The position numbers and the translations under genes are program-made. This document shows, piece after piece, positions 1 through 30,671 of a stretch of 64,000 nt of DNA (position 1 is the first letter of the stretch; each line of letters starts with the position of its first letter). The DNA lies in assembly GCA_025677605.1 (NCBI GenBank), contig GCA_025677605.1_4110.1. One strand, given 5' to 3'. Below the pieces are notes generated by a model. That model was not told the DNA's origin. It made no database searches and worked only from the letters and a program-made list of their open reading frames with translations. The DNA is from a phage.

Positions 1-40
1 ATATGGTTATAACATCGAACTAGGTAATTATAATTACTAT

Positions 41-3000
41 ATGTACGAAAACTTCCTACAAAGTGTTCGTTATACATATGATCATTTGGGTGTTGAAACT
101 GAAATTTCTGGATTGTACTACTATAACGTAGTTGGTAAAGATAATGAACTACACCTTAAGACCGATTGGGTTCGTTCTAAGGAAGATTCAAAGCAATTCG
201 TTAAACAAACGCCACAAATCGAACACACTGATATGTATCGTGTATTCAATACCGTATTCGAAATGGAAAACTTTAAAAATCCATTAGAAGGTATGTATGC
301 ATATGTTACTGAAGTGGATCGTACCTATCAATATTACAAAGAAGAACGTCAAACCTATATGGATTGGCATGTAATTAGTGGTGAAGGTATTCAAAGTGAA
401 CGTTTCAATCGCACATTTGAATTAGCCCAGAAAATTATTGATGGTAAGAGTACTGAAATCATTGAAATTCAAGTTGATGGTGTGGATGTAACCGATTATA
501 CACGTCATGTATATAATAACAAGGTTCAAAGCATCACTTTAGGTGAAGATGTAGCTCTTAAAGATGAATCAGTGATTCAAATTAGAACATACAGCAGTAC
601 TGAAGTACCAAATAAAGAGTTGGGTGCATATGAAATCCCAATCAACTTACAAAATAACCCATACAACGATAATATTCTTTATATCAACCAAAGTAATTTT
701 ACATTACATTTTAAAGATATCATTCAAAAGAATATCACCAGTGGTTCCGTTGATGATTTCAACGACTACGAAGATCGTTTGTCTAAAGGTTTAGTGGATA
801 ACTCCGTTGGTACTAAGATTATTCAAAACGAAGCATCAATGCTACCGTTAATGGCACATTCTGCAAATGAAGATATTGACCTATTTGAATCTGTATTGTT
901 TATGCAATCCGAATATTTCCGTTTCGTAAACAAGTTCAATACACAAATGATCCGTTTGTACAATGAGAACCCAGCAAACTTCTTAGCTAATAATGCTTCT
1001 AATATTGTTGATGAAATTCTAACAATTATTAATATGGGTCATGATAATACTTTCCCATTCTATTATGATAACGTAGCAAGTACTTCTGGCTTCATTCGTG
1101 CGTTTGTACCACCAACTCCACAGTTTTTGGGTATTTTGAAAGCACACGTTCCAGAAAAAGCAACATTTTTGAATGCTGGTAGTAAGCAAAGCTGTTATAA
1201 CATCAGTCATACAGGTGCAATCACTAAAGCATACCGTGTAATAAACGGTGTTGATAAAATGGATGACGTTATATATGAGTTAGAAAATAGAATTTTCAAT
1301 AGTATTGATGTTATTTTCAAAGATGAAGATTACCAACCTAAGCTAGATGCTTCTGATCTTTTCCCAACTCCGTATTACAGAGATACAGAGTATAATGACG
1401 AAGAGAAAAAGAACTTACTACTACGTGGTTATATTAATTTCATCGCAACCAATGGTATCAGTAACAGTTCACATGATTATGATCCAAATAACTGGATGAC
1501 TTGGAACTATACTGGAACACATTATATGGTTAATGGTCAACAAACACAAATAGCAGCCCGTGGTTCATGGCGAGCAATCTACACTGACCAATTTGGTACA
1601 TATCGCCCAGCAACCCATCCGTGGGAAATGTTTGGTTTCTCCCAACGTCCAGTTTGGTGGAACCAGGAATATGAACCTACCGCAGTTCAAGTTGGCGAAC
1701 GTGATGGTGATGTTGTTTATGTATATGAGGCATTAGTTATCAACGAACAAGGTAACATGGTTCCTAGTGGGTTATGGGACGTTGGTAACGAGAAAGGTGA
1801 TAGCTCAACGGGTACTATCTTGTTTGGTGCACGTAAAGGTCAATATGACAAGTACAAACGTTTTGGTACACAACCATTTAAGATCACTAAAACAGGCAAG
1901 CAGACAGCATCTGGTGTTGATATTTGCGTCATTGAGTACATTGCTCCTGAAGTTTTAGGTCTTGTATATGGTAGTCTAAATCATCGTGCTGAACCGTGGA
2001 CTTATGGTGATATGGGTGATATGGAATTCACTTATATGAACACAGCAATGTTTGCATATGATGAATTATTGATGTTATTCAAAGCTAAACCTGCACAGTT
2101 CACAAACTATTTCTGGGATACCCGAAATAATACATTAAAAACTGTATCTGGTAATGAACCACAGTTTTTATATGGTGATACTCGTTTACGTTTGAACTTT
2201 AATAGTGATACAATCGTACATGGTGAGAATAGTACTCGCGTTATTGGTTATCAAATGATTGTTAGTGATTATTTGATGTATCAAAACAAAAATATTACAA
2301 CTAAGTACGGTGAAATTGTTCGTTCTTCTCATATTAATGTGGGTCATAAACTAGGTGGATTCACTAAAGCTGACCAATTAACATTTACATCAGAAGCAAC
2401 TGGTCTAATTTCACAAGAAAACCAATCTATCGGTTTAGTTCGTTCTAATAATATTAGAAATGAGCAAATGAGTGCAATTAAAATTACTTGGACTGGTAGT
2501 GCTTACCAAATTGATGGTTATGATTTAGTTTCTGCAACATTCAATTATAAATTGCCTGTTAAAAACGGTCATAAAGTATCTTTGAAAGTTGATAATCGTA
2601 ATGTTGTTCATTATAATGAGTGGAAAAATGATGCATCCATTCCTTACGGAACTTTGATGAATACCTTCCAGGAAGTTTACACATTTATTTGTGGTTATGG
2701 TGAGTATCTAAAGCAACATGGTTGGATTTTTGAAGAAGTTGATGAATCTGGTATCCAACAGGACTGGAATACAATTGCAAAAGACTTTTTAATCTGGAGT
2801 CAACAACAATTGAGTACTGGTGAATTCATTTCTTGTACCCCATCAGCAATTAATGCTAAATTTGGTACAGATTTTGGTTCAGTTCAGTCAATTGCACAAA
2901 ATAGTGGTGGTGTTTGGTCATTATTAGATGATTCAAACCAAGGTATACGTCAATTTGAGATTGAAACATCTCGTATTGGTAACATATTCACGGTAAGAAC

Positions 3001-6000
3001 TACTGAAGAATCAAATAAACGCATGGCACTTATTCGTTTAAGTATCAGTTCTTATGAACATGCTGTTATTTTTGATGATCAGACTATTTTCGGTGATTAT
3101 ATCTATGAACCAACCTATGGTGCAGTTCAAGAATTGATTAAATTGTATGGATATATCACTGGTTCATGGTCTGGACGTTTACAAGCTCCTGGATTTATCA
3201 TCCTAGAAGCTGGGACATTACCATCATTTGAAACTTTGGTGTCTAATTTCCAACATTATTATGATAATGAAACCCCAGTTAGTGATGTTCAATTAAATGA
3301 ACTTTCAAACCACTTAATTGGCTATCAGTCTCGTGATTACTTACAACGTATGATCACTAATGAGCCTGGTCGAATTGATTTCTATAAAGGTTTTATTCAT
3401 GATAAAGGCACTAACCAAGTACTAGAAAAAGTATTACGTGTATCTAAATCATATAATACTGATGAGTATAAAGCATTACAAGAATGGGCATTCCGTGTTG
3501 GTTCTTATGGTAACATTGATGGTGTTAAAAATCTTCAATTTAAACTAATTAATAATGAGTTTAAACAACAACCACAAATGATTACGTTCGACCGTTATTC
3601 CGATAAGGTTGAATCTGAGAATGAAATTGTATATTATGGTGAAATTGGTGAAGATTCACGCTGGATTAGTCGTCCAAAAGGTAAATTCTCATTCCCTATG
3701 CGTAATGGGAGAAGTGAGAATATCCAATTACCTAATATTGGACCAGTAACCCTAGATGAAATTGATTATACCACATTAAATTACGAAACTGCAAATCAAG
3801 ACCGCATTAGTTATATGAATAATTCTGGTAAAATCCCAACATCTGTTTGGATGTTCCAAGATATCAATAACGAATGGAATGTGTATGATTTAGTAGATAC
3901 TGGTATTACAATGGTTTCTATTACACCAATTGAAAGTGAAGATCCATATGCTGAGCAATATTGTAAAGTACTATTGTCTGATGATATCCCACTCAATGAT
4001 GGTGATTATTATTATTTTGTTGATGAAACAAACTTTATGCCTGATGCCCTACGTGATGAATGCCAATACTACACTTCTGGACTAGATCCAAAAGTTATGG
4101 TAGTGCCATTTGACACTTCCATTACTATTGACTTTTCAACAGTAGAATCAGCACCACGTTTGTATCGTTATGTTAGTAGATTTAGTACTCAACAAGAACG
4201 CGATGAATATATTGCTAAAAAATATAGTTACAGTGCACCTGAAAGCACTTTGTTTGACCGTCCTACTACGTATGATGAAAGAACAAACATTACTGCATTG
4301 TATTTGAATGTGTTTGACCCAATTAACGGTGTTATTCCTGGGGTTGCAATGCAAGATGTTGATTTCATCTCTCCAGTGGACCCAGCACAGTATAGCAGTA
4401 ACGGTGAACTATTACAAGCATGGGGTGCTGAAAAGGTAGGTAAAGTGTGGTGGAACACTAGCACTGCATTCTATCTGGATTATACCCGTCCAATCTTTGA
4501 TGAGGATGGTAACGTTGATGTAAAAGCAACTAATGAATATAAGCGTTATAATTGGGGTAAATTATTACCACACAGTGTTATTGATGTTCTAGAATGGGTT
4601 AGTTCACCAGTAGAACCATACAACTGGGAAAAATATTGTGCAGAACAAGCCAATAAAAATAAAAACAATACTATGTATCTCCCAAGTGGGATTGCAATGG
4701 ATGAGAACTACAGTTCATCTATGGAATATGATCCAATCACTGATACATATGTAGTTCGTTATTATTTCTGGGTTCGTAATACCATTTATGTTCCACCAAT
4801 GACTACTCGTAGTAAGTCTTGTACTGATATTGCACGTATTATTCAAGATCCAACACAATTGAATGTTCCTTGGTTTGCACCTATTAATGAAAATAGTTTC
4901 ATTCTAAGTAATATGCAATTTGAAGTTAATGATGATACAAGCATTTTGACAATTTCATATAGAAATGACAATATCGAAGTACTGAAGCATGATCAATATC
5001 AACTTTGTAAAGAAGGTGATAGTTATGACTTTAACCCAGATATTTGGAATTCACTATGGAACTCACTAATTGGTCAAGAAACTACTTCAACTGGTGTTGT
5101 AAATGAAATAATTTATCCTAAAGTTGAAACTGGTTTAGGTTCTAATAAAACTTGGTTCCAGAATGTCATTGAAGCTCGTCGTGCGTTTGTTGAAAGTGCA
5201 AATAACTTTTACCGTTCACAGAACATCACAACTAACAGTGTTGTTATGAATGATGTGTTTAATGTGAAAACATTAAAAATGAACCCAAATGATATTACAT
5301 TCCGTGTTCTATCATTTAACAATGAATTGGTAATTGCACCAGAAGATAACCGCTTTAAAGAGAATGATGCAGTATTTGTAAGTTCCATCGGAACTCTACC
5401 AGCACCATTATCTTCTAGTTCAGTATATTTTGTTCACATTGATCCAAATGGATACATTCAATTGATGAACAGCCCAAGTACAGTTGGTAGTACTGTTACA
5501 ATCACTCTAGAAAATAGAGGTGAAGGTCAACACAAGATGATTAAACAAGCTGACTTCATAGAATCACTTGGTACATCTTTGGATATGACCCAGTACTGGA
5601 ATCTGGCTGATTGGTACGATACTGGATACGATAGCAACACTGAATATACACAAGAAGTTAGTTTAGATGACGCAAACACTAAAAATTACCAAATTGGTGA
5701 TATTATCCGTGTAACTGATAGTGATGGTGTTTGGACATTATACATCAAGACTGCATCTCGTAATAATATATACTGGAAAGCTATTGGACGTGAGAATAGT
5801 ACAGTTGAATTGAATTCAATGTTATATTCTGGGTACAATGTTTACAATGATGATGGTTCTTTGAATTCTCATGAGGTTAACGTTCGTAATGCGTTAGCGT
5901 TGTTGAAAAATTCATTCAACTTATATCAAAGTAATATTGTTTTTGATATGGTTAAGTACGTACACACTGAACAAAGTGTTGTTGACTGGGTATTCAAAAC

Positions 6001-8800
6001 CTCATATATCTATATTGTAGGTTTAGAACAATCTCTCGTACAAAACTACTCAAATGACAACTTGATTAATCAAATTGTTGAGTACTTCGAAGAAGTTAAA
6101 CCATACAGAACCAAAATCCGTTCTCAAATAGAACAGAAAACTTCTGATGATGATTTGATTAATGGTATCAGTAATGACCTTGACCCAGATGGCTATATTT
6201 TAGTTGATGGTGTGTGGGTTAAGACTGAAAAAGACATTTGGGATTTAGAATATGCACAATTTAATGACGTAACCCAACGTTGGGAAAAGATTGGTTCACT
6301 ACCAAGTGACTTTATCACACCTAACAGACGATTCCAAGAAATCGACGTTATTATGCATTATGATAATATTCAATGTGACCCGTATGATAGTAATTATACA
6401 ATTGATGAGTTGAAATCAACCAATAGTAAGTATCAATCTAATGCTTCGGATATAGGAAATGATTATGAGTTACAGAGATATGTTTATACATTCCCTGAAT
6501 ATGATAATAATACCTTAATTTCACAGATTGGTATTGAAATGACTACCAAATATTCAGATTTGGATATTAGTAATGGTGTCATTAAAGGAATTGATGCATG
6601 GTATAAAGCCCATTCAACTGATATTGCAATGACTGACCAATTTACTGCTGATTTGGAGCAGGTAACTGCTGATACAAACAACAGTAACATTTTAGAAGAC
6701 GTTAAGAAATATATTCAATACAATACATTGGCAACTCGTGTGAAAATGTTTAAGAATATATCTGATGACATGGTTTCTAATGAGATTGGTTGTCCATTTA
6801 AGGGTACGAACTATAATGATAATCCTAATACTCGCCTACCTTTTGGGTTCAGTGCAAGTAGTGATTACAACTATGGTTATTTTGAGATTAGTATTGAACT
6901 ATATGAAAAATATGTCGATATGATCAAGAAAAATCACCCTGAGTTTACTAATGAAGACCAAGTTCGTAATATACTAGAGATAGAATATGGTGTTTATTGC
7001 TACAAGTATGATACCACATTAAATGACCGTTATTATTCTGATACCGTTCATGTGTTATCTGCAATGCGACAAACATTTAATAAGAATATTCTAGATCATT
7101 ATTATGTTGCTAGAGAAATCTTAAGTAATCGTGCAGTTGATAAGTATGCTTTTGTTATGATGCCAAGGAAATATGTGTATGTTGTGAATGCGGCAGGTGA
7201 ATATCTACCGATTCCTGAAAGTTACAGCATATCTGATTTCATGGAAGACTTATTCATAACAACCGGAGAATCAGTTGTATTGGCTGAAATTGATTTAAAT
7301 GATTTACCACAAGACCAGAATAATCCAATGTATTCTGCATATGTTGAAGTACTGGAAAGTATCAATACTGCAAAATATTTCAATGATATGAATGCATTCG
7401 ATAACTTGGCATTGGAATCACAAACCAAATCCATTAAATGGGAAGTTAAAGATAGTGAGATTGATCCTTATATCATCGACATTTCTGAACTAAACCCATC
7501 AGGAAGAACAATGGCACAATTACGTTTCACTGTTGATGGTTACGGTTTCGATGAAGTTGCTCAAGAGCAATTAAAAGACACAAGTAGATTCCAGATTGAG
7601 GGTATGATCGTACAAAACCCTTACAATATGTCAGAAGCAGTTGTAAGTATTCCATCATATGATATTGTCATTGAGAATATGGGTAAAGATGTGTTCAAAG
7701 AATCTGAAAAATACTTCTTCCCAATTTCAGAAATTAAAACAATTACTGAAATCAAAGTTCACGATGAAGGTTTGAAAGATGGTGATAAGGTTATGATTTT
7801 CACGCCAGATGGTGAAGATTATGTACGATTCCAAGACGGTAACTGGGTAACTATATTAAGTGCTAGTAAAATCCAATCCTCTAAAAAACCAAAACTATAC
7901 ACAGTACGTGTATTGGGTAATGGTAACGTAGAGTTGGTTGATAGTAATGGTGTAGTGTTAATGTTTGATAGTATAACTAAGCGTGAAAGTAATGAGCGTT
8001 TTTATACATTATCAATGAACTTAGTTAGAATCCGCACTTTCCAAGACCCTGAGTTTGATGACAATGGACTTAAACTATATGAAAATAATCGTCATTACAG
8101 TATACATGCATTGAACTATGAAGTATTCTATGACGAAACATTATATGGTGGTAAATTCAATGATGGTATCACACCTGATGAAATTGATTTGTGGTTAGTT
8201 TCCAATGAGATTTTTGAAGTTGATGGTATTACAATTGATAATGGTTACAATCAGCCAATCTCTGGTAAAGGTGTCCTGGGTGAACTAGTACGAGCTAAAA
8301 TGACTGATGGTATTGAAATCACTGTATTTGAATACGATGTTGATGTTATTCAACCAGTACTAAGTTATGATCGCGTGTGGCAGTATGCACAACCTGTGGT
8401 CAATAACACGTTCATCAAAGAAGTAGGATGTAGTGTAATTAACATTACAACCGTTGAAGATGAGGCAATCACTTATGTTGCTAAACCTCGTTCAATAAGC
8501 CCATATATCATTACTGATTCAGTACTGTCAGGTGCTGCGGCACAGAATGATGATATTATTGTGGTTGGATATGAGAAGGTTCAGGTAAGAAACACTGACC
8601 GTCTATTACGTGGTGTCATGTATAGTGCGGAACATAATTTTACTAAAGGAACGTCTTATAGCTTTAATGGATTGAACTTGGGGAGCATTGATAAGTTTAC
8701 TCAATATCAAAACTTCTATCCACCAATTCCATTAGATACATTCAGAAATGGATTGTCAATTACTGGAACTGATATCGAAAATCTATTGAATATTCAATAA
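41..8800 (+). CDS. Giant protein (2919 aa), function unknown; possibly virion-associated
   Basis: Single uninterrupted 8.76-kb ORF; overlapping antisense ORFs are short. No catalytic motif recognised by eye. Followed by a bidirectional terminator. Confidence 0.85.
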   Translation: MYENFLQSVRYTYDHLGVETEISGLYYYNVVGKDNELHLKTDWVRSKEDSKQFVKQTPQIEHTDMYRVFNTVFEMENFKNPLEGMYAYVTEVDRTYQYYKEERQTYMDWHVISGEGIQSERFNRTFELAQKIIDGKSTEIIEIQVDGVDVTDYTRHVYNNKVQSITLGEDVALKDESVIQIRTYSSTEVPNKELGAYEIPINLQNNPYNDNILYINQSNFTLHFKDIIQKNITSGSVDDFNDYEDRLSKGLVDNSVGTKIIQNEASMLPLMAHSANEDIDLFESVLFMQSEYFRFVNKFNTQMIRLYNENPANFLANNASNIVDEILTIINMGHDNTFPFYYDNVASTSGFIRAFVPPTPQFLGILKAHVPEKATFLNAGSKQSCYNISHTGAITKAYRVINGVDKMDDVIYELENRIFNSIDVIFKDEDYQPKLDASDLFPTPYYRDTEYNDEEKKNLLLRGYINFIATNGISNSSHDYDPNNWMTWNYTGTHYMVNGQQTQIAARGSWRAIYTDQFGTYRPATHPWEMFGFSQRPVWWNQEYEPTAVQVGERDGDVVYVYEALVINEQGNMVPSGLWDVGNEKGDSSTGTILFGARKGQYDKYKRFGTQPFKITKTGKQTASGVDICVIEYIAPEVLGLVYGSLNHRAEPWTYGDMGDMEFTYMNTAMFAYDELLMLFKAKPAQFTNYFWDTRNNTLKTVSGNEPQFLYGDTRLRLNFNSDTIVHGENSTRVIGYQMIVSDYLMYQNKNITTKYGEIVRSSHINVGHKLGGFTKADQLTFTSEATGLISQENQSIGLVRSNNIRNEQMSAIKITWTGSAYQIDGYDLVSATFNYKLPVKNGHKVSLKVDNRNVVHYNEWKNDASIPYGTLMNTFQEVYTFICGYGEYLKQHGWIFEEVDESGIQQDWNTIAKDFLIWSQQQLSTGEFISCTPSAINAKFGTDFGSVQSIAQNSGGVWSLLDDSNQGIRQFEIETSRIGNIFTVRTTEESNKRMALIRLSISSYEHAVIFDDQTIFGDYIYEPTYGAVQELIKLYGYITGSWSGRLQAPGFIILEAGTLPSFETLVSNFQHYYDNETPVSDVQLNELSNHLIGYQSRDYLQRMITNEPGRIDFYKGFIHDKGTNQVLEKVLRVSKSYNTDEYKALQEWAFRVGSYGNIDGVKNLQFKLINNEFKQQPQMITFDRYSDKVESENEIVYYGEIGEDSRWISRPKGKFSFPMRNGRSENIQLPNIGPVTLDEIDYTTLNYETANQDRISYMNNSGKIPTSVWMFQDINNEWNVYDLVDTGITMVSITPIESEDPYAEQYCKVLLSDDIPLNDGDYYYFVDETNFMPDALRDECQYYTSGLDPKVMVVPFDTSITIDFSTVESAPRLYRYVSRFSTQQERDEYIAKKYSYSAPESTLFDRPTTYDERTNITALYLNVFDPINGVIPGVAMQDVDFISPVDPAQYSSNGELLQAWGAEKVGKVWWNTSTAFYLDYTRPIFDEDGNVDVKATNEYKRYNWGKLLPHSVIDVLEWVSSPVEPYNWEKYCAEQANKNKNNTMYLPSGIAMDENYSSSMEYDPITDTYVVRYYFWVRNTIYVPPMTTRSKSCTDIARIIQDPTQLNVPWFAPINENSFILSNMQFEVNDDTSILTISYRNDNIEVLKHDQYQLCKEGDSYDFNPDIWNSLWNSLIGQETTSTGVVNEIIYPKVETGLGSNKTWFQNVIEARRAFVESANNFYRSQNITTNSVVMNDVFNVKTLKMNPNDITFRVLSFNNELVIAPEDNRFKENDAVFVSSIGTLPAPLSSSSVYFVHIDPNGYIQLMNSPSTVGSTVTITLENRGEGQHKMIKQADFIESLGTSLDMTQYWNLADWYDTGYDSNTEYTQEVSLDDANTKNYQIGDIIRVTDSDGVWTLYIKTASRNNIYWKAIGRENSTVELNSMLYSGYNVYNDDGSLNSHEVNVRNALALLKNSFNLYQSNIVFDMVKYVHTEQSVVDWVFKTSYIYIVGLEQSLVQNYSNDNLINQIVEYFEEVKPYRTKIRSQIEQKTSDDDLINGISNDLDPDGYILVDGVWVKTEKDIWDLEYAQFNDVTQRWEKIGSLPSDFITPNRRFQEIDVIMHYDNIQCDPYDSNYTIDELKSTNSKYQSNASDIGNDYELQRYVYTFPEYDNNTLISQIGIEMTTKYSDLDISNGVIKGIDAWYKAHSTDIAMTDQFTADLEQVTADTNNSNILEDVKKYIQYNTLATRVKMFKNISDDMVSNEIGCPFKGTNYNDNPNTRLPFGFSASSDYNYGYFEISIELYEKYVDMIKKNHPEFTNEDQVRNILEIEYGVYCYKYDTTLNDRYYSDTVHVLSAMRQTFNKNILDHYYVAREILSNRAVDKYAFVMMPRKYVYVVNAAGEYLPIPESYSISDFMEDLFITTGESVVLAEIDLNDLPQDQNNPMYSAYVEVLESINTAKYFNDMNAFDNLALESQTKSIKWEVKDSEIDPYIIDISELNPSGRTMAQLRFTVDGYGFDEVAQEQLKDTSRFQIEGMIVQNPYNMSEAVVSIPSYDIVIENMGKDVFKESEKYFFPISEIKTITEIKVHDEGLKDGDKVMIFTPDGEDYVRFQDGNWVTILSASKIQSSKKPKLYTVRVLGNGNVELVDSNGVVLMFDSITKRESNERFYTLSMNLVRIRTFQDPEFDDNGLKLYENNRHYSIHALNYEVFYDETLYGGKFNDGITPDEIDLWLVSNEIFEVDGITIDNGYNQPISGKGVLGELVRAKMTDGIEITVFEYDVDVIQPVLSYDRVWQYAQPVVNNTFIKEVGCSVINITTVEDEAITYVAKPRSISPYIITDSVLSGAAAQNDDIIVVGYEKVQVRNTDRLLRGVMYSAEHNFTKGTSYSFNGLNLGSIDKFTQYQNFYPPIPLDTFRNGLSITGTDIENLLNIQ

Positions 8801-8801: not shown

Positions 8802-8833
8802 AAAAAAGGAGAGCCAATGGCTCTCCTTTTCTT
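8802..8833. terminator. Bidirectional intrinsic terminator between convergent genes
   Basis: A-run, then perfect hairpin GGAGAGCC-AAT-GGCTCTCC (about 8808-8826), then T-run; reads as hairpin plus U-tract on both strands. Confidence 0.8.
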
Positions 8834-8834: not shown

Positions 8835-11120
8835 TTACACTACAGATGGGGTTTTAACTTGACGTTTTGGTTTGATACCCAACTTTCCGTTAATCACATC
8901 AAATGTTACGTTACCACCATTTACCAGTGAACCGCATAGCATTTCTTTAGCCAGAGGAACACGGATGTTCTGCTCGATTGTACGTTTCATTGGACGTGCA
9001 CCCATTCCAGGCTGAACACCATTTGCTTCTAACCATTCACGAGCCGCTTTAGTCAGTGTTACTTTCACGCCACGCTCTTTGATTTGCTCATTTAGACCAG
9101 CCATGAACTTATCAATAACGCTCTGGATAGCTTCACTGGATAGCTCATTAAACTTCACGATGCTATCGATACGGTTTAGGAATTCAGGTGGTAGGAAAGC
9201 TTTCACTGCCTTCTCCTGTGCTGTTTCACCACCACTCAAACCCAGACTACGTTTATTTGCATCTGCTGCACCCAAGTTGGTTGTCATAATAACTGTTACG
9301 TTGTTAAAGTATACAGTTTTACCCTGTGAACCAGTTAGGTGACCTTCATCCAGAACCTGTAGGAAGGTTAGCAGTACTTTAGGGTGTGCTTTTTCAATTT
9401 CGTCCAGCAGTAGAACTGCATTCGGGAATTGCTCAATTTTGTCGAGTAGCAGACCATTACCAGTATCGTGACCAACATAGCCAGGAGGTGAACCAATTAG
9501 TTTTGCAACGGTATGTTCTTGTGAAAATTCAGACATATCGAAGCGAATCAGTTCAGAACCCATTGCATCGGCTAGTGCTTTAGTGATTTCAGTTTTACCA
9601 GTACCAGACGGACCGACAAACATGAATGCACCCTGAACACTTGCTTTCTCACGAAGTCCTGCACGTGCAACCATTACGTTATCAACCAATTTCTCCACTG
9701 CTTCTTCTTGACCGAATACACGACTACGAAGTGCTGCTGGTAGTGACTTCATACGTTCAGTTTCAGTACAAGCTACTACGTTGATATCCAAGTTTGCAAT
9801 TCCCGCAACAACTTCTTGAATTGTGCGTAGTGAAATCACATTATCAGATTCATCGCGTGAACGTTTCTTAGCTGCTGCTGCATCCATAATGTCGATTGCT
9901 TTGTCTGGGAAGTGTTTGTTCTTCAGGAACTTATCACTCAAAGACACAATCGCATCCATTGCTTCAGTACTGAAAGTTACGTTATGGAATTTCTCATATG
10001 TACCTTGCAGACCATTTACAATCGCACGAGTTTCTTCAATAGTTGGCTCAACTACGTCAATTTTCATGAAACGACGAGTCAATGCACTATCTTTCTCGAT
10101 GTTTTTACGATATTCATCATAAGTAGTTGCACCGATTACACGAATCTCACCACGAGATAGTGCTGGTTTCAACATGTTACTCATATCCATTGAACCGTTG
10201 CTTGCAGAACCTGCACCTACCATGATATGGATTTCGTCAATGAACACGATTGTATTTTCACGTTTCTTCAGTTCTTTGAGAAGATTATCAATACGTTCTT
10301 CGAATTCACCACGATACTTAGTACCAGCGGTTAGTGCACCAACGTTAAGAGATAAAATCTCAATGTTTTGTAGATGTTCTGGTACATTACCATCAACAAT
10401 GGCTTGTGCTAGACCGTCAACAATCTGAGTTTTACCAACACCAGCTTCACCAGTAAGAATAGCATTCTTCTTAGTTTTACGAGCCAGAGTTTCAATTAGT
10501 GCATCCAGTTCTTTTTGACGACCAATCATTGGGTCCAGTTTACCATCTTTAGCCAACTGTGTTAGGTTGGTCGTGTAATCTTCGATTGATTTCTGTTTTG
10601 ATGCAGGTTGTTGTTGAGCCACCTTTTTCTCCCCAGTAGGTTCATCAGCGATGCTTTGTAGGTTAATTTCAGAATCAAGAGATTCTACATATTTCTGAAG
10701 AGTGCGGGCCGCTTCAGTACGAGTTACACCCTCTTCCAACAATGCTGCTTCTAATGCAGTGTTTGGGAATGACAAACATTCAAACAGTACAAAGAATGCA
10801 TCAATTGAGAAATCGTCACGTTTGAGTTGTTCGATGACAGATTTCTTAGATAGTTCTTGCATTACACGATTGACGATTAGTGTAGTGCGATTAACTTCTT
10901 CCCCCATAGTGCTGCGTGGTGCGTGTGGAACATTGGTATTTTTCAGATATTCAATCAAGCGGTCACGCACTTTCGTTGCGTCAACGTTCATTGTACCAAA
11001 TACATCAATAATGCTATCCACTGTCAGTACTGTAGCACTGATGTGATCGATTGTCAAGAAAGTATGACCCATAGAGGTTGCAAGGTCGTCGCTGCTTTTG
11101 AATAGCTGTGTTAAATTCAT
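8835..11120 (-). CDS. ClpA/ClpB-family double-AAA+ unfoldase
   Basis: N-terminal Clp_N-like repeats; D1 Walker A GEAGVGKT and Walker B FIDEIH; D2 Walker A GPSGTGKT with LLLDEIEKAHP; SLGL loop at the position of the ClpA IGL ClpP-docking tripeptide. Confidence 0.9.
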   Translation of the reverse strand: MNLTQLFKSSDDLATSMGHTFLTIDHISATVLTVDSIIDVFGTMNVDATKVRDRLIEYLKNTNVPHAPRSTMGEEVNRTTLIVNRVMQELSKKSVIEQLKRDDFSIDAFFVLFECLSFPNTALEAALLEEGVTRTEAARTLQKYVESLDSEINLQSIADEPTGEKKVAQQQPASKQKSIEDYTTNLTQLAKDGKLDPMIGRQKELDALIETLARKTKKNAILTGEAGVGKTQIVDGLAQAIVDGNVPEHLQNIEILSLNVGALTAGTKYRGEFEERIDNLLKELKKRENTIVFIDEIHIMVGAGSASNGSMDMSNMLKPALSRGEIRVIGATTYDEYRKNIEKDSALTRRFMKIDVVEPTIEETRAIVNGLQGTYEKFHNVTFSTEAMDAIVSLSDKFLKNKHFPDKAIDIMDAAAAKKRSRDESDNVISLRTIQEVVAGIANLDINVVACTETERMKSLPAALRSRVFGQEEAVEKLVDNVMVARAGLREKASVQGAFMFVGPSGTGKTEITKALADAMGSELIRFDMSEFSQEHTVAKLIGSPPGYVGHDTGNGLLLDKIEQFPNAVLLLDEIEKAHPKVLLTFLQVLDEGHLTGSQGKTVYFNNVTVIMTTNLGAADANKRSLGLSGGETAQEKAVKAFLPPEFLNRIDSIVKFNELSSEAIQSVIDKFMAGLNEQIKERGVKVTLTKAAREWLEANGVQPGMGARPMKRTIEQNIRVPLAKEMLCGSLVNGGNVTFDVINGKLGIKPKRQVKTPSVV

Positions 11121-21252: not shown

Positions 21253-24200
21253 ATGTACTCGATAAAAACAGATCTAGCAGTAACTGGTAATACTAATGTT
21301 GGTAAAGAATTATCAGTTAAAGGTAATGCGGTCTTCGATAAAAACGTAACCATTAAGGGGACCGTTAGTTTCGCTGATGCTACCTTCACTGCAATTACAG
21401 TAGATCAAGCAACAATCAACACAACACTCGATGTTACAGGCAAAGCGTCACTTAAGGGTGGAATGGATGTACTTGGCAATACAGTTATTGGTAATACTAC
21501 TGCTGGTTCCGATACAGCAACTATTAATTCCAATGCTACTTTTAATGGCACTTCTACTTTTGCCAAAGATATTACACAAACATCAGGAAAAGCAATTTTT
21601 CAAGATACCACCACTTCTGCATTAGAAGTTAATGGTACAACAACATTAAATGGTAACCTCACTGCTGCGGCAGCAACCACTGCAAGCTTTGATAAATTAA
21701 CTGCTAATGAAGCAACCATTGCAACTGTATCAGCAACTGATATTACTGCAACTGGTGCAACCGTTGAGAATCTAACTGTAACTGGTAAATTAGATGGTGA
21801 TTTCACATTAGGGGATGTTAATACCGATAATTTAGTTGTTGAAAAACTATCTACATTAAAAGGTGCTGTAACCCTAGAATCAAACATCATTGGTACTAAT
21901 ACTGTAGCAAACCTAAAAGCTGTATCTTTGGGTTCTAATGCAGCGGATTCGACTGCACGCCTAGGCTTTGCATATACTGCTCCTGGTTTACGCCCAACTG
22001 TAATTCTACAAAACGAAGTACAGTCCGAGCTAATGACACCAGCAAATCTAACAGTACTTAAAACTGCTACATTTGGTGATGTATCAGCAGCAACCAATGG
22101 TATTACCGCAAAAGGTTTGAACCTATTTGATTACCTAACACTTTCTGGTAACTCAATACAAGATCCAACCACACCAATTCTACGTGTAACTAAAGGTAAA
22201 ACACAATTAACTGACCTACAAGTTGATGGAACTACTAATATTACTGGTAAAACTACTGTTGGTGATTTGGATATTACTGGAACACTATCAGGTAACTTTG
22301 TACTAAGTGATATTACTGCGGATAATTTAGTTGTTGAAAAACTAACTACACTAAAAGGTGCATTAAACCTAGAATCTAATATTGTTGGTTCAACTGCGAA
22401 TGCTAATTTAAAATCTGTCACTTTAGGTGGAAACGTAGCAGACACGAATGCTAAAGTTAACTTTACATATACTGCTCCTGGTTTACGTCCAACTGTAATT
22501 CTACAAAACGAAGTACAGTCCGAATTAATGACCCCAGCAAATCTAACAGTGCTGAAAACTGCTACATTTGGTGATGTATCTGCATCTACCTACGGTATTA
22601 CAGCAAAAGGTTTGAACCTATTTGATTATTTGAAAATAACTGGTAATGCGGTACAAGATCCAAATACATTAACTCTAGATGTGGATGGTAAGGCTCAATT
22701 CAAAGACGTTAATTTCACTGGTACAGTTACTGGTTTTGTTCCTGACATTTCTGGTCAAGATATTACACCTAAAGATGTAACTGCTTCTGGTAATATTAGT
22801 GGTGTTAATCTAGATGCTTCTGGTACACTAACAGTTGATGGGGATTCCGTTCTAAAAGGCACAACTATAACTGATTTGACTGTTACTGGAACTACAACTG
22901 GTATTACACTAGCTGGTCAAGACATTACTCCTAAAGATGTAACTGCATCTGGTAATGTTAAAGGTGTTGACGTAACTGCATCTGGAAACCTAACAGTTGA
23001 CGGTACTACCACATTGGTTGGTAACACGGTAGTTGATGGTTTATTTGAAGTTGTTGGTCAAACAACCACTGTTAAAGATTTGAACGTTACTGGTACACTA
23101 TCTGGTGCTGCAATTAAAGCAAACGTTGATGGTCTAGACATTCTACCTAATTCTGTAACCACAACTGAAGAAGTTGCAGTGGGGACTAATCTAAGTGTTG
23201 GTGGAAACGCACTCTTTAGTGGCTTGAAAGTTGAAGTTACTGGTAAAGTTACTGGTGTTGGTTCTGATGCATTAGAAACTGGTTCAATTGAATCTGACGG
23301 TACTATCACTGCCCCAAATATCACAGCAACTACTAAAGTGACCGCAGCTTCCGCACAAATTACCGGAACCGGAACTGGTCTAAGTGTAGATCATAATGCA
23401 TCAGTTGGTGGTGATTTAAATGTTACTGGAACTTTAACGGCTGGTGTTATTGACCTAAGTGCGGCTGATGTAACTGTTAAAACACTTGATGTATCTGAAA
23501 GTGCACATGTAGGTGGAAACCTAACTGTTGATGGTACTGTAGATTTAAGTGCAGCAGATGTAAGTGTTAAATCTTTAACTAGTGCTGGTCCTGTGATTAG
23601 TAATGATGCTACTGGAACTAACATTCTACCAAAATTACAAAGTACTGATATTACTACAACTAACAGTACAACTGGTACAGCAACAGTAACTACAGCAAAC
23701 ATTTCTACATTAAATGTTACTGGTGAAAGTACATTGGCTGCTGTTTCTGCTGTTTCTGTAACTACTCCTTCTATTGTTAATACCGATGGTATTAATTTAG
23801 AAAATGATACAGTTGCACATGGTGACCTAACTGTTAAAGGTACATTTACACCTGAAGGTGGATTAGATTTAAGCCCAGTTGATATCAGTTCTAAATCATT
23901 AACAACAACTGAAGGTGCAACCATTGGTGGAAGCTTAACTGTTGATGGTGCAATTAATGCTGCTGCGGCAGATCTAACTGTTAAATCACTAACTTCTTCT
24001 GGTGTTATTACTGTTACTGAAAATACTGAACCAAGTATTCTACCAAAACTAACAAGTACTGAAGCAACCGCTGGTAAATTGAATGTTACTGGTGATGCAA
24101 CAGTCGGTGGTAAAGCGACCGTTTCTGGTGCACTTGAAGTTACTGGTGCTTCAACATTTGGTAACGCAGTAACTGTAAACGTCGGTGGTATTACTGCTAA

Positions 24201-26796
24201 AGGTGGCTTGACTGTTGCTTCTGGAAACTTGAAAGTTGCTGCTGCGGCAGTGGTTGATGGTTCAGTAAGTGCTGGTTCATACACAAGTGCTGGAGATAAA
24301 ATAACACTAGCTAAACCAACAGATGTTACTGGTGATTTGCACGTTGAAGGTGCTTTCACTGCAACTTCCGTTGATTTTAGTACAACTGATTTAACTGTTA
24401 AATCACTACAAGTTGATAATGACGTTACTATCGATGGTAACTTGACTATCACAAATGCTGATTTGGAAACTAACTCATTAGCAAGTACTACAAGTACTAC
24501 TGTTGGTACTGACCTAATTCTAACTACTGGTACAATTACTGGTGCTCCAACAATTTCTGGTGCAACTACACTAAGTTCAACCCTACATACTGTAGGTGCT
24601 GCAACTTTTGATGGTACTGTTGATGTTGGTGGTAAAATTACTTCTAAATCAATCCAAGTAAGTGCTACTGGTGTTGGTGTAGCTGTTGATAATGATGCAA
24701 CTGTTGGTGGTTATTTGACAATTGGTGAAACATTAGGTGTTACTGGACTAAGTACTCTGTCTGGTGGGGTTGATGCAGGTTCTGCATTAATCAAAACTAC
24801 TGGTGAAGTTCAATCAGCAACTCTACAAACTTCTGGTAAAGCAACACTAGCAAGTGTTGATGTTTCAGGTGATGCAGTTGTTACTGGTGACCTAACTGTT
24901 AAAGGTGCATTTACACCTGAAGGTAGCCTAAACTTAGGTTCTGCTGTTCTAAACGTTGAAGGTGTTGATGCAAGTGCTAACTTAACTGCACTCGGTTCTG
25001 TAACTGCTGGTACTACACTAACTGTTACTGGTGTTTCAACTCTAAATGGTGGTACTAACACTACTACTCTTTCAACAAGTGGTAAAGCTACATTAAGTAG
25101 TGCGGAAGTTACTGGTGCTCTAAGTGCTGGTGGTGCTTTGGCTGTTACTGGTACTACAAATCTAACTGGAAAACTAACCGCTGGTGAAGCTGCTCTCAGT
25201 TCACTAACAGTTTCTGGTGATGTTACCATTAATGGAACACTAAACCCTGGAACATTGGATCTATCTACTACTCCAGTTGATGCGAAAAGCTTGAAATCTA
25301 GAGAAACACTAGAAGTTACTGGTCTAAGCACTCTAACTGGTGGTTTGGCTGTTAGTGCAAATACCGCAATCACTGCTGCTGGTGACATTACTGGTACTAC
25401 AATTACCACAACTGGTAAAGGTACATTTGGTAGTGCAGCGGTAACTACTGGTTTGACTGTTGGTGGTGCTTTGGTTGTTAATGGTGCATCCGTGAACATC
25501 TCTGATGCTTCTACTGTGACTATGCCTAAAGCTGATATTTCTGCGAAAGGTATTATCATCGGTCCTAAAGTTAGTTCAAGACCGGAAACTATCCAATTTG
25601 TTGGTGATACTTATATTGGTAGTAACCTATTTGTTGCTGGTAATATTAACGGTTCAGTAGATTTGGCTGGTCAGGATATTTCCCTGAACTCATTAACTTC
25701 TAATACCACAATTCACGCAGTTGAGGATATTACTACTGATGAAGATATGCACGCACGTGCTGCAACATTCGGTGCACAAGGTTCAACAGCTAACAGCCTA
25801 ACTGTTAATGGTAACGCAGTAACTACTGGCGACTTTACTGTTAGTGGTAAGATTATTGGTACACTGGACCAATCTGCAAGTGCAGTCGAAGTTAAATCTC
25901 TAACTTCTACAACCTTTATCGCTGCTGGTACAACCCTAACAGTTGGTTCAACAATCACTGCTGAAGGTTTGAGTACTTTGAAAGGTGGTATTGCAACTAA
26001 TGGTGCTACAATCAACGCTGGTGATGGTGCAATCACTACAACTGGTGATGTGTCTGGTGCAAACGTTAGTGCGTCTGGTGCAGTAACTACTGCAACTATT
26101 ACAACTTCTGGCCTAGCAACTATGGCAAGTGCTAAGATTAACACTACTCTAGCAGTTACTGGTGCAACTACACTATCTGATGTTGTTACTATCGGTAAGA
26201 AACTAACTGTTAGTACTGGTGGTATCGAAATCACTGCGGGTGGCTTCAATGTAGTTGCGGGTGGTGCAGCAATTACTGGTGCTACTAACCTTAAAGGTGC
26301 TGTAACACTAGGTTCTGCGTCTGCTGATGCAATCACAGTTACTGGTACATCTTCATTTGCTGAAAATGCAACATTTGCTAAAGATGTGACTATTGAAGGC
26401 ACACTACATACAGATATTGCTGATTTAGTAACTGAAAGTGTAACTACTAAAAAGTATGCTGTTACACCTGCTGCTAAAGTACAGGCATCTGTTGCTGCTC
26501 CAAGTGAAGGAACATGGTCACCTGATGGTGAGTCTAATGTGTACTATATTACACTAGACCAAGCATCAACTACACTAGGTCCAATTAACGGATTGATTGG
26601 AAGTGGTAAGGCTGGTTCTTACTATATCTACGTACAACAAGATGCAACTGGTGGACGTGAACTTATCACTGATGGTACTTATGCAGTAGTAGGTGGTGAG
26701 ATTAACAAAACACAAAATACAGTTAGTATCATTCAGTTGATTTATGATGGATACAGCCCAGTAGTAGATATGTTTATTGCACAACGTACTGCTTAA
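21253..26796 (+). CDS. Long tail fiber (1847 aa), highly repetitive T/G/A/V-rich
   Basis: Recurrent LTV(D/T)G and TVKSL motifs, internal tandem duplications; GGAGGG RBS. Antisense ORFs here are compositional artefacts. Confidence 0.85.
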   Translation: MYSIKTDLAVTGNTNVGKELSVKGNAVFDKNVTIKGTVSFADATFTAITVDQATINTTLDVTGKASLKGGMDVLGNTVIGNTTAGSDTATINSNATFNGTSTFAKDITQTSGKAIFQDTTTSALEVNGTTTLNGNLTAAAATTASFDKLTANEATIATVSATDITATGATVENLTVTGKLDGDFTLGDVNTDNLVVEKLSTLKGAVTLESNIIGTNTVANLKAVSLGSNAADSTARLGFAYTAPGLRPTVILQNEVQSELMTPANLTVLKTATFGDVSAATNGITAKGLNLFDYLTLSGNSIQDPTTPILRVTKGKTQLTDLQVDGTTNITGKTTVGDLDITGTLSGNFVLSDITADNLVVEKLTTLKGALNLESNIVGSTANANLKSVTLGGNVADTNAKVNFTYTAPGLRPTVILQNEVQSELMTPANLTVLKTATFGDVSASTYGITAKGLNLFDYLKITGNAVQDPNTLTLDVDGKAQFKDVNFTGTVTGFVPDISGQDITPKDVTASGNISGVNLDASGTLTVDGDSVLKGTTITDLTVTGTTTGITLAGQDITPKDVTASGNVKGVDVTASGNLTVDGTTTLVGNTVVDGLFEVVGQTTTVKDLNVTGTLSGAAIKANVDGLDILPNSVTTTEEVAVGTNLSVGGNALFSGLKVEVTGKVTGVGSDALETGSIESDGTITAPNITATTKVTAASAQITGTGTGLSVDHNASVGGDLNVTGTLTAGVIDLSAADVTVKTLDVSESAHVGGNLTVDGTVDLSAADVSVKSLTSAGPVISNDATGTNILPKLQSTDITTTNSTTGTATVTTANISTLNVTGESTLAAVSAVSVTTPSIVNTDGINLENDTVAHGDLTVKGTFTPEGGLDLSPVDISSKSLTTTEGATIGGSLTVDGAINAAAADLTVKSLTSSGVITVTENTEPSILPKLTSTEATAGKLNVTGDATVGGKATVSGALEVTGASTFGNAVTVNVGGITAKGGLTVASGNLKVAAAAVVDGSVSAGSYTSAGDKITLAKPTDVTGDLHVEGAFTATSVDFSTTDLTVKSLQVDNDVTIDGNLTITNADLETNSLASTTSTTVGTDLILTTGTITGAPTISGATTLSSTLHTVGAATFDGTVDVGGKITSKSIQVSATGVGVAVDNDATVGGYLTIGETLGVTGLSTLSGGVDAGSALIKTTGEVQSATLQTSGKATLASVDVSGDAVVTGDLTVKGAFTPEGSLNLGSAVLNVEGVDASANLTALGSVTAGTTLTVTGVSTLNGGTNTTTLSTSGKATLSSAEVTGALSAGGALAVTGTTNLTGKLTAGEAALSSLTVSGDVTINGTLNPGTLDLSTTPVDAKSLKSRETLEVTGLSTLTGGLAVSANTAITAAGDITGTTITTTGKGTFGSAAVTTGLTVGGALVVNGASVNISDASTVTMPKADISAKGIIIGPKVSSRPETIQFVGDTYIGSNLFVAGNINGSVDLAGQDISLNSLTSNTTIHAVEDITTDEDMHARAATFGAQGSTANSLTVNGNAVTTGDFTVSGKIIGTLDQSASAVEVKSLTSTTFIAAGTTLTVGSTITAEGLSTLKGGIATNGATINAGDGAITTTGDVSGANVSASGAVTTATITTSGLATMASAKINTTLAVTGATTLSDVVTIGKKLTVSTGGIEITAGGFNVVAGGAAITGATNLKGAVTLGSASADAITVTGTSSFAENATFAKDVTIEGTLHTDIADLVTESVTTKKYAVTPAAKVQASVAAPSEGTWSPDGESNVYYITLDQASTTLGPINGLIGSGKAGSYYIYVQQDATGGRELITDGTYAVVGGEINKTQNTVSIIQLIYDGYSPVVDMFIAQRTA
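21784..22700 (+). repeat. In-frame tandem duplication (period 495 bp) inside the fiber gene
   Basis: 21979-22133 and 22474-22628 are near-identical, both encoding APGLRPTVILQNEVQSELMTPANLTVLKTATFGDVS; a further 165-bp repeat encodes GQDITPKDVTASGN at about 22753 and 22918. Confidence 0.85.
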
Positions 26797-29738: not shown

Positions 29739-30668
29739 TTATACAGCCATTGGTGCTTTGATTGTTGGCATTGGATTGTAATTCAAAAGTTTGAAAGAAT
29801 CCATTGTAAAATCTTCAATATCGGTAATTGAAGGATCTAGCCATAATTCTGGTAAATCACGCGGTTCACGTTGAAGTTGTTCTTTAACTTGTTCTACGTG
29901 GTTTTTGTAAATGTGACAATCACCACCATTCCAAATAAACTCACCAACCTCAAGTCCAGTGATTTGTGCAATCATATGGGTTAGTAGTGAATAGCTACTA
30001 ATATTAAATGGTACTCCCAAAAATAGATCCGCACTGCGTTGATGTAGAATACAGCTTAGCTTACCCTGTACGACACAAAACTGTACGAAGCTATGGCAGG
30101 GTGGTAAAGTCATATCATCAAGCTCACCAACGTTCCAGGCACTTAGAATGTGACGACGACCGTATGGATCTGCTTTGATACCTTCAATGACTTGTTTTAG
30201 TTGGTCAGTAACACGACGCATAACAACACCATGTGAACCAGTATAATCAATTACTTTATAACCTTTATCTTTTAATTCTTGAATTTCTGCTGTACTGGCA
30301 CTGAATTTATAATCTTCCCATTCACGCCATTGCTTACCATAAACTGGTCCAAGCTCACCATTAGAATATCCAAGAGCTACACCTTGATTAAGGTAGTTGT
30401 CTGTCCAAATTGTTTTCTTTTCCCAATCACGAGTGCCGTGTAGAATTTCACACAAGCGACGCTCATCATGAGAACCTTCAATGAACCATAATAATTCTGA
30501 AGTCATTGCTTTCCAAGCTAAACGTTTGGTTGTCACTGCTGGAAAGCCTTGTTGAAGGTCAAAACGCATTTGTTGACCGATTAGTTTGATAGTACCTACA
30601 CCTGTACGATCAGTACTTTCTACGCCTTCATCCAGAATTTTTTGATATAGTTCTTGTAGTTGTTTCAT
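29739..30668 (-). CDS. thyA: Thymidylate synthase
   Basis: Colinear with E. coli ThyA: DRTGVGT, GPVYGKQWR, SAWNVGELD, catalytic LPPCH, QRSADLFLGVPFNI, IKAPMAV C-terminus. Continuous ORF, no intron. Confidence 0.93.
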   Translation of the reverse strand: MKQLQELYQKILDEGVESTDRTGVGTIKLIGQQMRFDLQQGFPAVTTKRLAWKAMTSELLWFIEGSHDERRLCEILHGTRDWEKKTIWTDNYLNQGVALGYSNGELGPVYGKQWREWEDYKFSASTAEIQELKDKGYKVIDYTGSHGVVMRRVTDQLKQVIEGIKADPYGRRHILSAWNVGELDDMTLPPCHSFVQFCVVQGKLSCILHQRSADLFLGVPFNISSYSLLTHMIAQITGLEVGEFIWNGGDCHIYKNHVEQVKEQLQREPRDLPELWLDPSITDIEDFTMDSFKLLNYNPMPTIKAPMAV

Positions 30669-30671
30669 TGT

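What the first reader, a model, noticed from the sequence alone, without database searches (positions are those of the whole stretch)
41..8800. Single 2919-aa ORF with no recognisable motif
An 8.76-kb uninterrupted frame in an AT-rich genome must be under strong selection. I see no polymerase, lysin or fiber motif. Giant phage proteins of this size are usually virion-associated (tail hub or tape-measure-like, ejected proteins or virion RNA polymerases). It ends convergently with the ClpA-like gene.
Basis: seen in the sequence. Interest (0 to 1): 0.6.

Follow-up and report, generated by a model that had tools for sequence, protein, structure and literature searches.

The report
Giant baseplate protein of jumbo phage
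The long open frame is real, but it is only the last 2,932 codons of a 3,325-residue virion protein of a RaK2/121Q-like jumbo coliphage. It is most likely a hugely enlarged outer baseplate (wedge) protein, and its folds match nothing solved so far.

Summary
The frame 41..8800 is open and cannot be chance (P about 1e-88). It is also open back to window base 2, so the ATG at 41 is internal. The window is 99.6% identical to Escherichia phage A4 (Asteriusvirus), where the gene starts 1,218 nt upstream and encodes 3,325 aa.

Orthologues were found in virions by mass spectrometry in phAPEC6 (gp245), CBB (CBB_236) and PA5oct. None has an assigned function.

In A4, PA5oct, Atu_ph07 and four deep-branching metagenomic phage contigs the gene directly follows a gp6-like wedge gene, preceded by gp25 in six of the seven. 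The fuller module gp53, gp5-like, gp25, gp6-like was shown in four. That is the slot of T4 gene 7 and P2 gene I.

The family has about 800 clusters at 50% identity, and nearly all of the 150 best-scoring members are 1,500-6,300 aa. Some members carry carbohydrate-binding inserts.

Best reading (about 0.6): a gp7-position wedge and peripheral scaffold that carries the fibre apparatus. It is not a tape measure, hub or virion RNA polymerase.

The parts
2..8800 (+). 3' part (codons 394-3325 plus stop) of the 3,325-codon giant virion protein gene (phage A4 locus tag A4_580). The first 393 codons lie upstream of the window.
   Evidence: open frame reaching base 2; A4 annotation and upstream sequence; PHROG profile positions 407-3324.
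2..838 (+). Residues 394-672. Beta-rich and predicted with low to moderate confidence. Includes one of the less conserved stretches among RaK2-like orthologues (about residues 491-590).
   Evidence: pLDDT 31-87; mean identity 0.43 in that stretch.
839..3091 (+). Residues 673-1423. Confidently predicted conserved core of mixed alpha/beta domains. It holds the most invariant motif, GSWRAIY..Y.T.RP.THPWEM(L/F)GF..P.WW. No solved structure resembles it.
3218..3514 (+). Residues 1466-1564. Helical stretch LPSFETLVSNF...HLIGYQSRDYL...FYKGFIHDKGT...QEWAFRVGSYG, present in all 120 family members examined. It is a candidate, not shown, for the gpI/gp7-type core-bundle segment.
   Evidence: conservation; short helices, pLDDT < 50. 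hhalign puts KGT..EWA onto P2 gpI KGT..EWW, but only at P 0.09 and 0.016. Nothing with T4 gp7 or HMMER.
3920..4250 (+). Residues about 1700-1810. Main insertion hot-spot of the family, where distant homologues carry up to about 1,100 extra residues including FG-GAP repeats. Poorly conserved among RaK2-like orthologues.
   Evidence: alignment breaks at about 1710-1820 in P0001 numbering; positions of the inserted domains; identity 0.46.
2..6290 (+). The window part of the region shared by the whole family (protein residues about 1-2490). Mean identity is 55-75% among RaK2-like orthologues and 22-35% to Vibrio, Agrobacterium, Pseudomonas and metagenomic giants.
6293..8797 (+). Residues about 2491-3325. 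C-terminal third that is specific to the clade and evolves fast (mean identity 30-47%). It has no counterpart in distant homologues. Inferred to be the distal part that faces the fibres or the host.
   Evidence: no alignment beyond about 2470-2500.
8804..8830 (.). Hairpin (12-bp stem) with T-runs between the convergent giant gene and the ClpA-like gene. Likely a bidirectional terminator.

Best explanation
The frame encodes the C-terminal 88% of a 3,325-residue, roughly 380-kDa structural protein of the baseplate of a RaK2/121Q-like jumbo myovirus (near-identical to Escherichia phage A4).

Proposed mechanism:
1. It occupies the place of T4 gp7 / P2 gpI ('wedge 1').
2. One short helical segment would join two copies of the upstream gp6-like protein in the wedge core.
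3. The rest, a chain of mostly novel globular domains, would form the periphery of an oversized baseplate.
4. This periphery would be the platform on which the branched fibre and tailspike apparatus docks.
5. The conserved first 2,500 residues would build the scaffold. The variable last 830 residues would face the fibres or the host.

Shown: the gene is intact, strongly conserved and truncated by the window. Orthologues are in virions. The position behind gp25 and gp6-like genes is conserved. The protein is neither fibrous nor repetitive. Distant relatives carry carbohydrate-binding inserts.

Inferred: the location in the wedge and periphery, the contact with gp6, the fibre docking, and the copy number (six per virion by analogy with T4).
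For: (1) Synteny. In A4 the order is gp53-like (PF11246), a 716-aa protein, gp5-like (OB fold, M23, lysozyme), a lysozyme, gp25 (PF04965), a gp6-like 1,154-aa wedge protein (phrog_219 N-terminus, E 1e-21), then the giant. The triad gp25, gp6-like, giant recurs in PA5oct and Atu_ph07. It also recurs in three metagenomic contigs of 258-375 kb whose giants are only 24-28% identical to this one. A fourth metagenomic contig has the gp6-like gene directly upstream, preceded by an unassigned 144-aa gene. T4 has 53-5-6-7 and P2 has J-I-H in the same order.

(2) The CBB paper's table of T4 homologues for this phage group lists gp5, gp6, gp25 and gp53 but no gp7 (PMC5259590). The wedge partner is therefore unaccounted for.

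(3) Virion mass spectrometry detected the orthologue in three relatives.

(4) The AlphaFold model shows compact alpha/beta domains, and self-BLAST finds no internal repeats.

(6) Distant members carry CBM_5_12, FG-GAP, Laminin_G_3 and a T7-fibre-N-like stretch at the insertion hot-spots or the C-terminus. This argues for an exposed position.

(7) Downstream genes in distant loci are fibre genes (Collar, Laminin_G_3, a T4 gp10-like domain).

(8) Length is held within 3,310-3,361 aa with almost no gaps across the 54 aligned RaK2-like orthologues (two longer variants of 3,465-3,469 aa were left out), although identity falls to 43%. The C-terminal third evolves fastest.
Against: No sequence or profile similarity to T4 gp7 or P2 gpI reaches significance. 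hhalign gave probabilities of 0.1-2.8%, with the best P at 0.016. HMMER, Pfam and NCBIfam found nothing.

The two candidate core-bundle segments are predicted with pLDDT < 50.

No structure or localisation experiment exists for this protein. Gene order alone does not fix a position in the particle.

A 211-339-aa unassigned structural gene at the head of the module could instead be the small gp7/gpI-type protein.
Confidence: 0.6

Rival explanations
1. It is a peripheral fibre-network or adhesin protein, an analogue of T4 gp9/gp10/gp12 or of the primary branched-fibre protein. It would be attached to the outside of the baseplate but would not be part of the wedge core. A different small protein would play the gp7/gpI role.
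Against: The protein has no repeats, no coiled-coil or beta-helix signature and no trimeric fibre-like prediction. Its first 2,500 residues are more conserved than is usual for receptor-binding proteins. It is invariably fused to the gp6-like gene's 3' side, whereas recognisable fibre genes lie further downstream.
Confidence: 0.2
2. It is an internal or ejected virion protein, such as a head or tail-lumen cargo, a virion RNA polymerase or a DNA-protecting protein, that merely sits in the tail gene cluster.
For: Giant virion proteins of N4-like and crAss-like phages are ejected RNA polymerases (general knowledge). Mass spectrometry only shows presence in particles. PHROGs files the family under 'head and packaging'.
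Against: No polymerase, nuclease or other enzyme family or fold was found. The phage has its own late sigma factor gene next to the module (A4_588). Lectin-type and CBM inserts in relatives make no sense inside the capsid. The synteny with wedge genes is conserved.
Confidence: 0.07
3. It is the tape measure or a central hub component of the tail.
For: It is very long and lies near the hub and lysozyme genes.
Against: The predicted structure is compact mixed alpha/beta domains, not an extended helix. The length would correspond to about 500 nm against a tail of about 130 nm (general rule of 1.5 A per residue; PA5oct tail 136 nm, PMC3936114 abstract). A separate gp5-like protein and a 716-aa candidate hub or tape-measure gene lie upstream.
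Confidence: 0.03
4. It builds the atypical 'hairy' whiskers or the collar decorations seen along the tails of CBB and phAPEC6.
For: These phages carry unusual tail appendages whose proteins are unassigned (PMC7247149, PMC5259590).
Against: Whiskers are thin, numerous fibres, whereas this protein is globular, non-repetitive and recovered at low coverage (7.6-7.7%). The family is also present in about 800 clusters of diverse phages and is always beside wedge genes.
Confidence: 0.05

Closest known systems
T4 gp7 / P2 gpI / Mu gp48 / T6SS TssG ('wedge 1' baseplate proteins)
   Same: The gene sits immediately 3' of the gp6/J-like wedge gene in a module with gp25, gp53 and gp5. The protein is a virion component and a multi-domain protein. 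T4 gp7 also carries its core segment in mid-chain (LP..KG(T/I) stretch at residues about 650-770 of 1,032), with peripheral domains on both sides.
   Different: It is 3-19 times larger. Profile and fold comparisons are negative or at noise level. The confident core has no solved counterpart.
Orthologues already in databases: 121Q gp582, PBECO4, phAPEC6 gp245, CBB_236, GAP32, RaK2, PA5oct gp128 (RefSeq PQE65_gp355), Atu_ph07 AUZ94962; PHROG phrog_10938
   Same: Same protein family: 43-100% identity within the RaK2-like clade and about 28% to PA5oct and Atu_ph07. Detected by virion mass spectrometry. Known as 'the largest ORF' of these genomes.
   Different: All are annotated only as 'structural', 'hypothetical' or 'virion structural protein'. 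PHROGs files the family under head and packaging. The five papers opened here assign no function or location.
Gp7-like part of eCIS wedge proteins (Alg12/Afp12/Pvc12), described as an evolutionary hot-spot for fibre binding
   Same: The idea that the wedge protein's lateral part is exposed, variable and binds fibres or superstructures (PMC8894135).
   Different: Those proteins are under 1,100 aa and are recognisably gp6/gp7-like. No similarity was detected here.
CBA120 TSP4 / RaK2 gp528 branched-fibre anchors with T4 gp10-like docking domains
   Different: The match covers one small beta domain at a weak score. The giant is not a tailspike and has no enzymatic beta-helix.

Membership tests
T4 gp7 / P2 gpI (PF09684) / TssG wedge-1 family | Gene directly downstream of the gp6/J-like wedge gene within the baseplate module | tested here: met
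   Met in 7 of 8 loci examined: A4, PA5oct, Atu_ph07, L005, L006 (one small PD-(D/E)XK gene intervenes), L007 and L089. The eighth locus (L090) is cut by the contig end.
T4 gp7 / P2 gpI (PF09684) / TssG wedge-1 family | Detectable sequence or profile similarity to gp7, gpI or their Pfam/NCBIfam models | tested here: not met
   Pfam and NCBIfam found nothing for the whole protein, for 333-aa windows, or for 24 family members' segments. hhalign against T4 gp7 gave probabilities of 0.1-0.8%. hhalign against P2 gpI gave P 0.09, and 0.016 with a 112-sequence profile, aligned on the KGT..EWW motif. hmmsearch found nothing.
T4 gp7 / P2 gpI (PF09684) / TssG wedge-1 family | A helix that completes the three-helix core bundle, plus a trifurcation unit, with two gp6 copies | not testable with these tools
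T4 gp7 / P2 gpI (PF09684) / TssG wedge-1 family | Structural component of the particle | tested here: met
   Literature mass spectrometry on orthologues: phAPEC6 gp245, CBB_236 and PA5oct. Not measured for this isolate.
PHROG phrog_10938 (giant 'virion structural protein' of RaK2-like phages) | Full-length match to the family profile | tested here: met
   E = 0, 4,464 bits. Protein residues 1-2916 of the window ORF align to profile positions 407-3324 of 3324.
Tape measure proteins | Extended, almost all-helical chain whose length matches the tail length | tested here: not met
   The AlphaFold model of residues 394-1593 has many beta-sheets and compact domains. No TMP family hit was found. The length is about four times too great for the tail (general rule).
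Virion RNA polymerases (N4 gp50, crAss-like gp66 type) | Polymerase catalytic motifs or fold | tested here: not met
Fibre-anchor / T4 gp10-like / T7 gp17-N docking domains | Small beta-sandwich domain superposable on solved anchor domains | tested here: inconclusive

The most novel reading that the evidence does not exclude
A single polypeptide of 3,000-6,000 residues, built largely of folds with no solved relative, replaces the multi-protein periphery of the T4-type baseplate (gp7 to gp11). It would serve as the docking scaffold for branched fibre systems in a large, mostly uncultured group of jumbo myoviruses (about 800 clusters at 50% identity). These would be among the largest baseplate proteins described, and a distinct architectural solution for contractile tails.
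Probability: 0.35. Interest if true: 0.65.

Novelty: new variant of a known kind. Interest (0 to 1): 0.45.

Why it matters
RaK2/121Q-like jumbo phages are candidates for therapy against E. coli and Klebsiella. Their elaborate adsorption apparatus sets host range. The site where the branched fibres attach to the baseplate is unknown: the RaK2 adsorption study leaves the partner of the gp528 anchor open (PMC10253068).

If the largest gene of these genomes is the wedge and peripheral scaffold, that gives a concrete target for cryo-EM, for engineering fibre attachment, and for annotating hundreds of metagenomic giants now labelled 'hypothetical'.

The 750-residue confidently predicted core without any solved neighbour is also a candidate source of new folds.

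The finding is not a new gene. The gene is deposited, and its product is known to be in virions.

Tried and rejected
- Pfam on the whole protein and on ten consecutive windows of 328-333 aa: no domain.
- NCBIfam and Pfam on N-terminal and mid-protein segments of 13 and 24 family members: only scattered chance hits.
- PDB sequence search with the protein, and PDB profile searches with three alignments (N-terminus, full length, mid module): zero hits at E <= 10.
- hhalign of family profiles against T4 gp7: nothing.
- hhalign against P2 gpI: the expected motif is aligned, but not significantly.
- hmmsearch of the mid-module profile against T4 gp7, T4 gp6 and P2 gpI: noise.
- Test for an internal duplication between the N-terminal and mid 'LP...G(Y/F)IG' stretches: negative.
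The model had pLDDT 65 and Foldseek gave nothing.
- The search for related loci with the family alignment failed because no stretch was conserved enough.
- The P2 gpI scan of viral contigs returned only 99-100% identical copies, and the last protein search listed only relatives at 70% identity or more. No diverse gpI profile could therefore be built.
- Self-BLAST for repeats: none.
- Exact T4 late promoter TATAAATA before the gene: absent. Only 'CATAAATAAAT' follows a hairpin there.

Full report
**Observation**

The + strand frame that ends with the stop at 8798-8800 is uninterrupted. With the window's composition (36% GC) a stop codon is expected every 15 codons. The chance of 2,932 stop-free codons is about 1e-88, and the other five frames of the same stretch hold 151-490 stops.

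There is no stop between window base 2 and the ATG at 41; the translation reads YGYNIELGNYNYYM.

The window is 99.6% identical over its first 12 kb to Escherichia phage A4. This phage (ON286972, Asteriusvirus) is a 355.5-kb RaK2/121Q-like jumbo myovirus. There the annotated CDS A4_580 begins 1,218 nt upstream of window base 41, behind a GGAG ribosome-binding site. It encodes 3,325 aa.

The PHROG family profile confirms this. The window product aligns to profile positions 407-3324 of 3324. The window therefore carries residues 394-3325.

The gene ends 3 nt before a 12-bp hairpin terminator (8804..8830). It is convergent with a true ClpA/ClpB-type double AAA+ gene.

**Is it a real, intact gene?**

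tblastn finds it in 93 phage records. In 72 of them a single place covers at least 80% of the query. A few records annotate it in 3-13 pieces; these are most likely sequencing or assembly frameshifts.

Orthologues were identified in purified virions by mass spectrometry in three phages:
- phAPEC6 gp245: 381.9 kDa, 17 unique peptides, listed directly after the 131-kDa 'baseplate wedge' gp244 (PMC7247149).
- CBB_236: 21 peptides, next to CBB_237, which is gp6-like (PMC5259590).
- PA5oct: RefSeq note 'ESI-MS/MS'. The paper calls it one of the two largest proteins, gp128, next to baseplate genes gp129, gp130 and gp133 (PMC7318152).

None of the five papers opened here (on phAPEC6, CBB, PA5oct, RaK2 and phiKp24) assigns it a function.

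**Family**

A word-indexed search returned 120 relatives. Fifty-seven are RaK2-like proteins of 3,310-3,469 aa at 43-100% identity. The rest are metagenomic giants of 2,785-5,075 aa at 20-32% identity.

An exhaustive HMMER scan used the confidently folded core (residues 673-1423) against 1.84 billion cluster representatives. It found 796 proteins at E <= 1e-3 and 472 at E <= 1e-30. Nearly all of the 150 best are 1,545-6,281 aa, with the core beginning about 230-2,260 residues (typically 600-1,500) from the N-terminus.

Cultured distant members include Vibrio phage 2.275.O (35%), Agrobacterium phage Atu_ph07 (28%) and the PA5oct group (28%).

Residues about 1-2,490 are shared by the whole family. 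This shared part is interrupted by insertion hot-spots near residues 150-160, 755, 1,240, 1,700-1,810 and 2,140-2,250. In distant members these hot-spots and the C-terminus carry CBM_5_12, FG-GAP and Laminin_G_3 domains and a sub-threshold T7-fibre-N-like stretch.

Within the RaK2-like clade the alignment has almost no gaps. Mean identity to A4 is 55-75% up to residue about 2,490 and drops to 30-47% in the last 830 residues. There are no internal repeats.

**Context**

Upstream in A4, in order:
1. A 243-aa structural protein.
2. A gp53-like protein (PF11246).
3. A 716-aa structural protein.
4. A gp5-like protein (OB fold, M23, lysozyme).
5. A lysozyme.
6. gp25 (PF04965).
7. A 1,154-aa 'baseplate wedge' protein. 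Its N-terminus matches the T4 gp6 PHROG (phrog_219, E 1e-21) and aligns colinearly, though weakly, with T4 gp6.
8. The giant.

The same order (gp25, then a 1,000-1,300-aa gp6-like protein carrying phrog_219 or PF27647, then the giant) is found in several other places:
- PA5oct and Atu_ph07.
- Three metagenomic contigs of 258-375 kb.

A fourth metagenomic contig has the gp6-like gene directly upstream, preceded by an unassigned 144-aa gene at the gp25 position.

The most divergent hit lies at a contig end and is uninformative.

T4 (53-5-...-6-7) and P2 (J-I-H) place their gp7/gpI gene in exactly this slot. The CBB paper's table of T4 homologues lists gp5, gp6, gp25 and gp53 for this phage group but no gp7.

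Genes downstream in distant loci are fibre genes: Collar, Laminin_G_3 and a T4 gp10-like domain.

**Homology and fold tests**

Sequence and profile searches were negative:
- Pfam, whole protein and 328-333-aa windows: nothing.
- NCBIfam on segments: nothing.
- PDB by sequence and by three profiles: nothing at E <= 10.
- hhalign of family profiles against T4 gp7: nothing.

AlphaFold2 with a 22-sequence alignment gave pLDDT 71 for residues 394-1593. Residues 673-1423 scored mostly 85-95 and form compact mixed alpha/beta domains. This model has no neighbour in the PDB by Foldseek (best E 0.46).

The N-terminal 390 residues lie outside the window. They could only be modelled through an orthologue fragment (pLDDT 65) and gave no Foldseek hit.

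**A lead that stayed a lead**

Residues 1466-1564 (window 3218..3514) read LPSFETLVSNF...HLIGYQSRDYL...FYKGFIHDKGTNQVLEKVL...QEWAFRVGSYG. The stretch is present in all 120 members.

By eye it recalls the P2 gpI and T4 gp7 (residues 650-770) pattern LLP...KGT...EWW. hhalign does align KGT..EWA onto gpI KGT..EWW, but only at P 0.09 with a single sequence and 0.016 with a shallow 112-sequence profile. HMMER and the T4 comparison show nothing. AlphaFold gives this stretch pLDDT < 50.

I therefore do not claim family membership.

**Interpretation**

The best-supported reading (about 0.6) is that this is the gp7-position wedge and peripheral scaffold of an oversized baseplate. A short segment would join two gp6-like subunits. 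The conserved 2,500 residues would build the rim. The fast-evolving C-terminal third would face the fibre network or the host. The protein as a whole would be the platform for the complex fibres of these phages.

The RaK2 adsorption study leaves the baseplate partner of the fibre anchor gp528 unidentified (PMC10253068).

What is shown: integrity, conservation, virion presence (in orthologues), synteny, non-fibrous domain architecture, and exposed-type inserts in relatives. What is inferred: location, contacts and copy number.

Rival explanations:
- A purely peripheral fibre-hub or adhesin protein, with another small protein acting as gp7 (0.2).
- An internal or ejected protein (0.07).
- Whisker or collar decoration (0.05).
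- Tape measure or hub (0.03).

The last three conflict with the predicted structure, the inserts and the synteny.

**Novelty and score**

The gene and its presence in virions are already in databases and papers, so the observation itself is not new. What is new is its placement in the gp7 slot across a family of about 800 clusters, together with the demonstration that its confidently predicted core has no solved relative. I rate this as a new variant of a known kind (a baseplate wedge or peripheral protein).

Interest is 0.45. A specialist would be moderately surprised by the size and structural novelty, and the question is directly testable by cryo-EM.

Noticed in passing
window 8835..11120 (-): A 761-aa ClpA/ClpB-type protein with two AAA+ modules and a ClpB_D2-small domain. 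It is convergent with the giant gene and stays adjacent to it in the RaK2-like records listed. It is absent from that position in PA5oct, Atu_ph07 and the metagenomic loci. It may be an unfoldase or chaperone for very large virion proteins.
   Followed up: partly
window 8804..8830: Perfect 12-bp hairpin flanked by A- and T-runs between the two convergent genes. Probably a bidirectional intrinsic terminator.
   Followed up: partly
window 32553..35356 (-): A gene pair: a DUF2201_N metallopeptidase-like plus VWA protein, and an AAA (MoxR-like) ATPase. The same pair lies a few kb from the giant gene in metagenomic locus L007 (31478..32560 and 30134..31381). This suggests a conserved accessory module of these jumbo phages.
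   Followed up: no
window 21253..26796 (+): A 1,847-aa ORF, annotated 'long tail fiber proximal subunit' in A4, with no Pfam hit. Four antisense ORFs of 165-353 aa lie inside it, and GC rises locally to 0.41. This may reflect strongly periodic codon usage or repeats.
   Followed up: no
L001 375..3582 (upstream of the window, phage A4): Two unassigned structural genes (243 aa and 716 aa) flank the gp53-like gene at the head of the baseplate module. They are conserved in PA5oct and L005. The 716-aa protein has about the right length for a tape measure of a 110-nm tail, or it could be the gp27-type hub. The small one is the only other candidate for a gpI-type wedge protein.
   Followed up: partly
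GenBank relatives SD-1_S14, SD-6_S16, CMSTMSU: The giant gene is annotated as 3-13 separate ORFs in these records, although the pieces are colinear with the intact gene. These are most likely sequencing or assembly frameshifts rather than biology.
   Followed up: no
L001 10750..10800: Between the gp6-like gene and the giant gene lies a GC-rich hairpin with a T-run, followed by CATAAATAAAT. This is a near-match to the T4-type late promoter TATAAATA. The giant gene may therefore have its own late promoter. The only exact TATAAATA in the 36-kb locus is at 334..341, before the first gene of the module.
   Followed up: partly
window 37423..38895 (-): A 490-aa ORF with an acidic, proline-rich low-complexity stretch at residues 384-438 (weak Trypan_PARP hit, far below the cut-off).
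   Followed up: no
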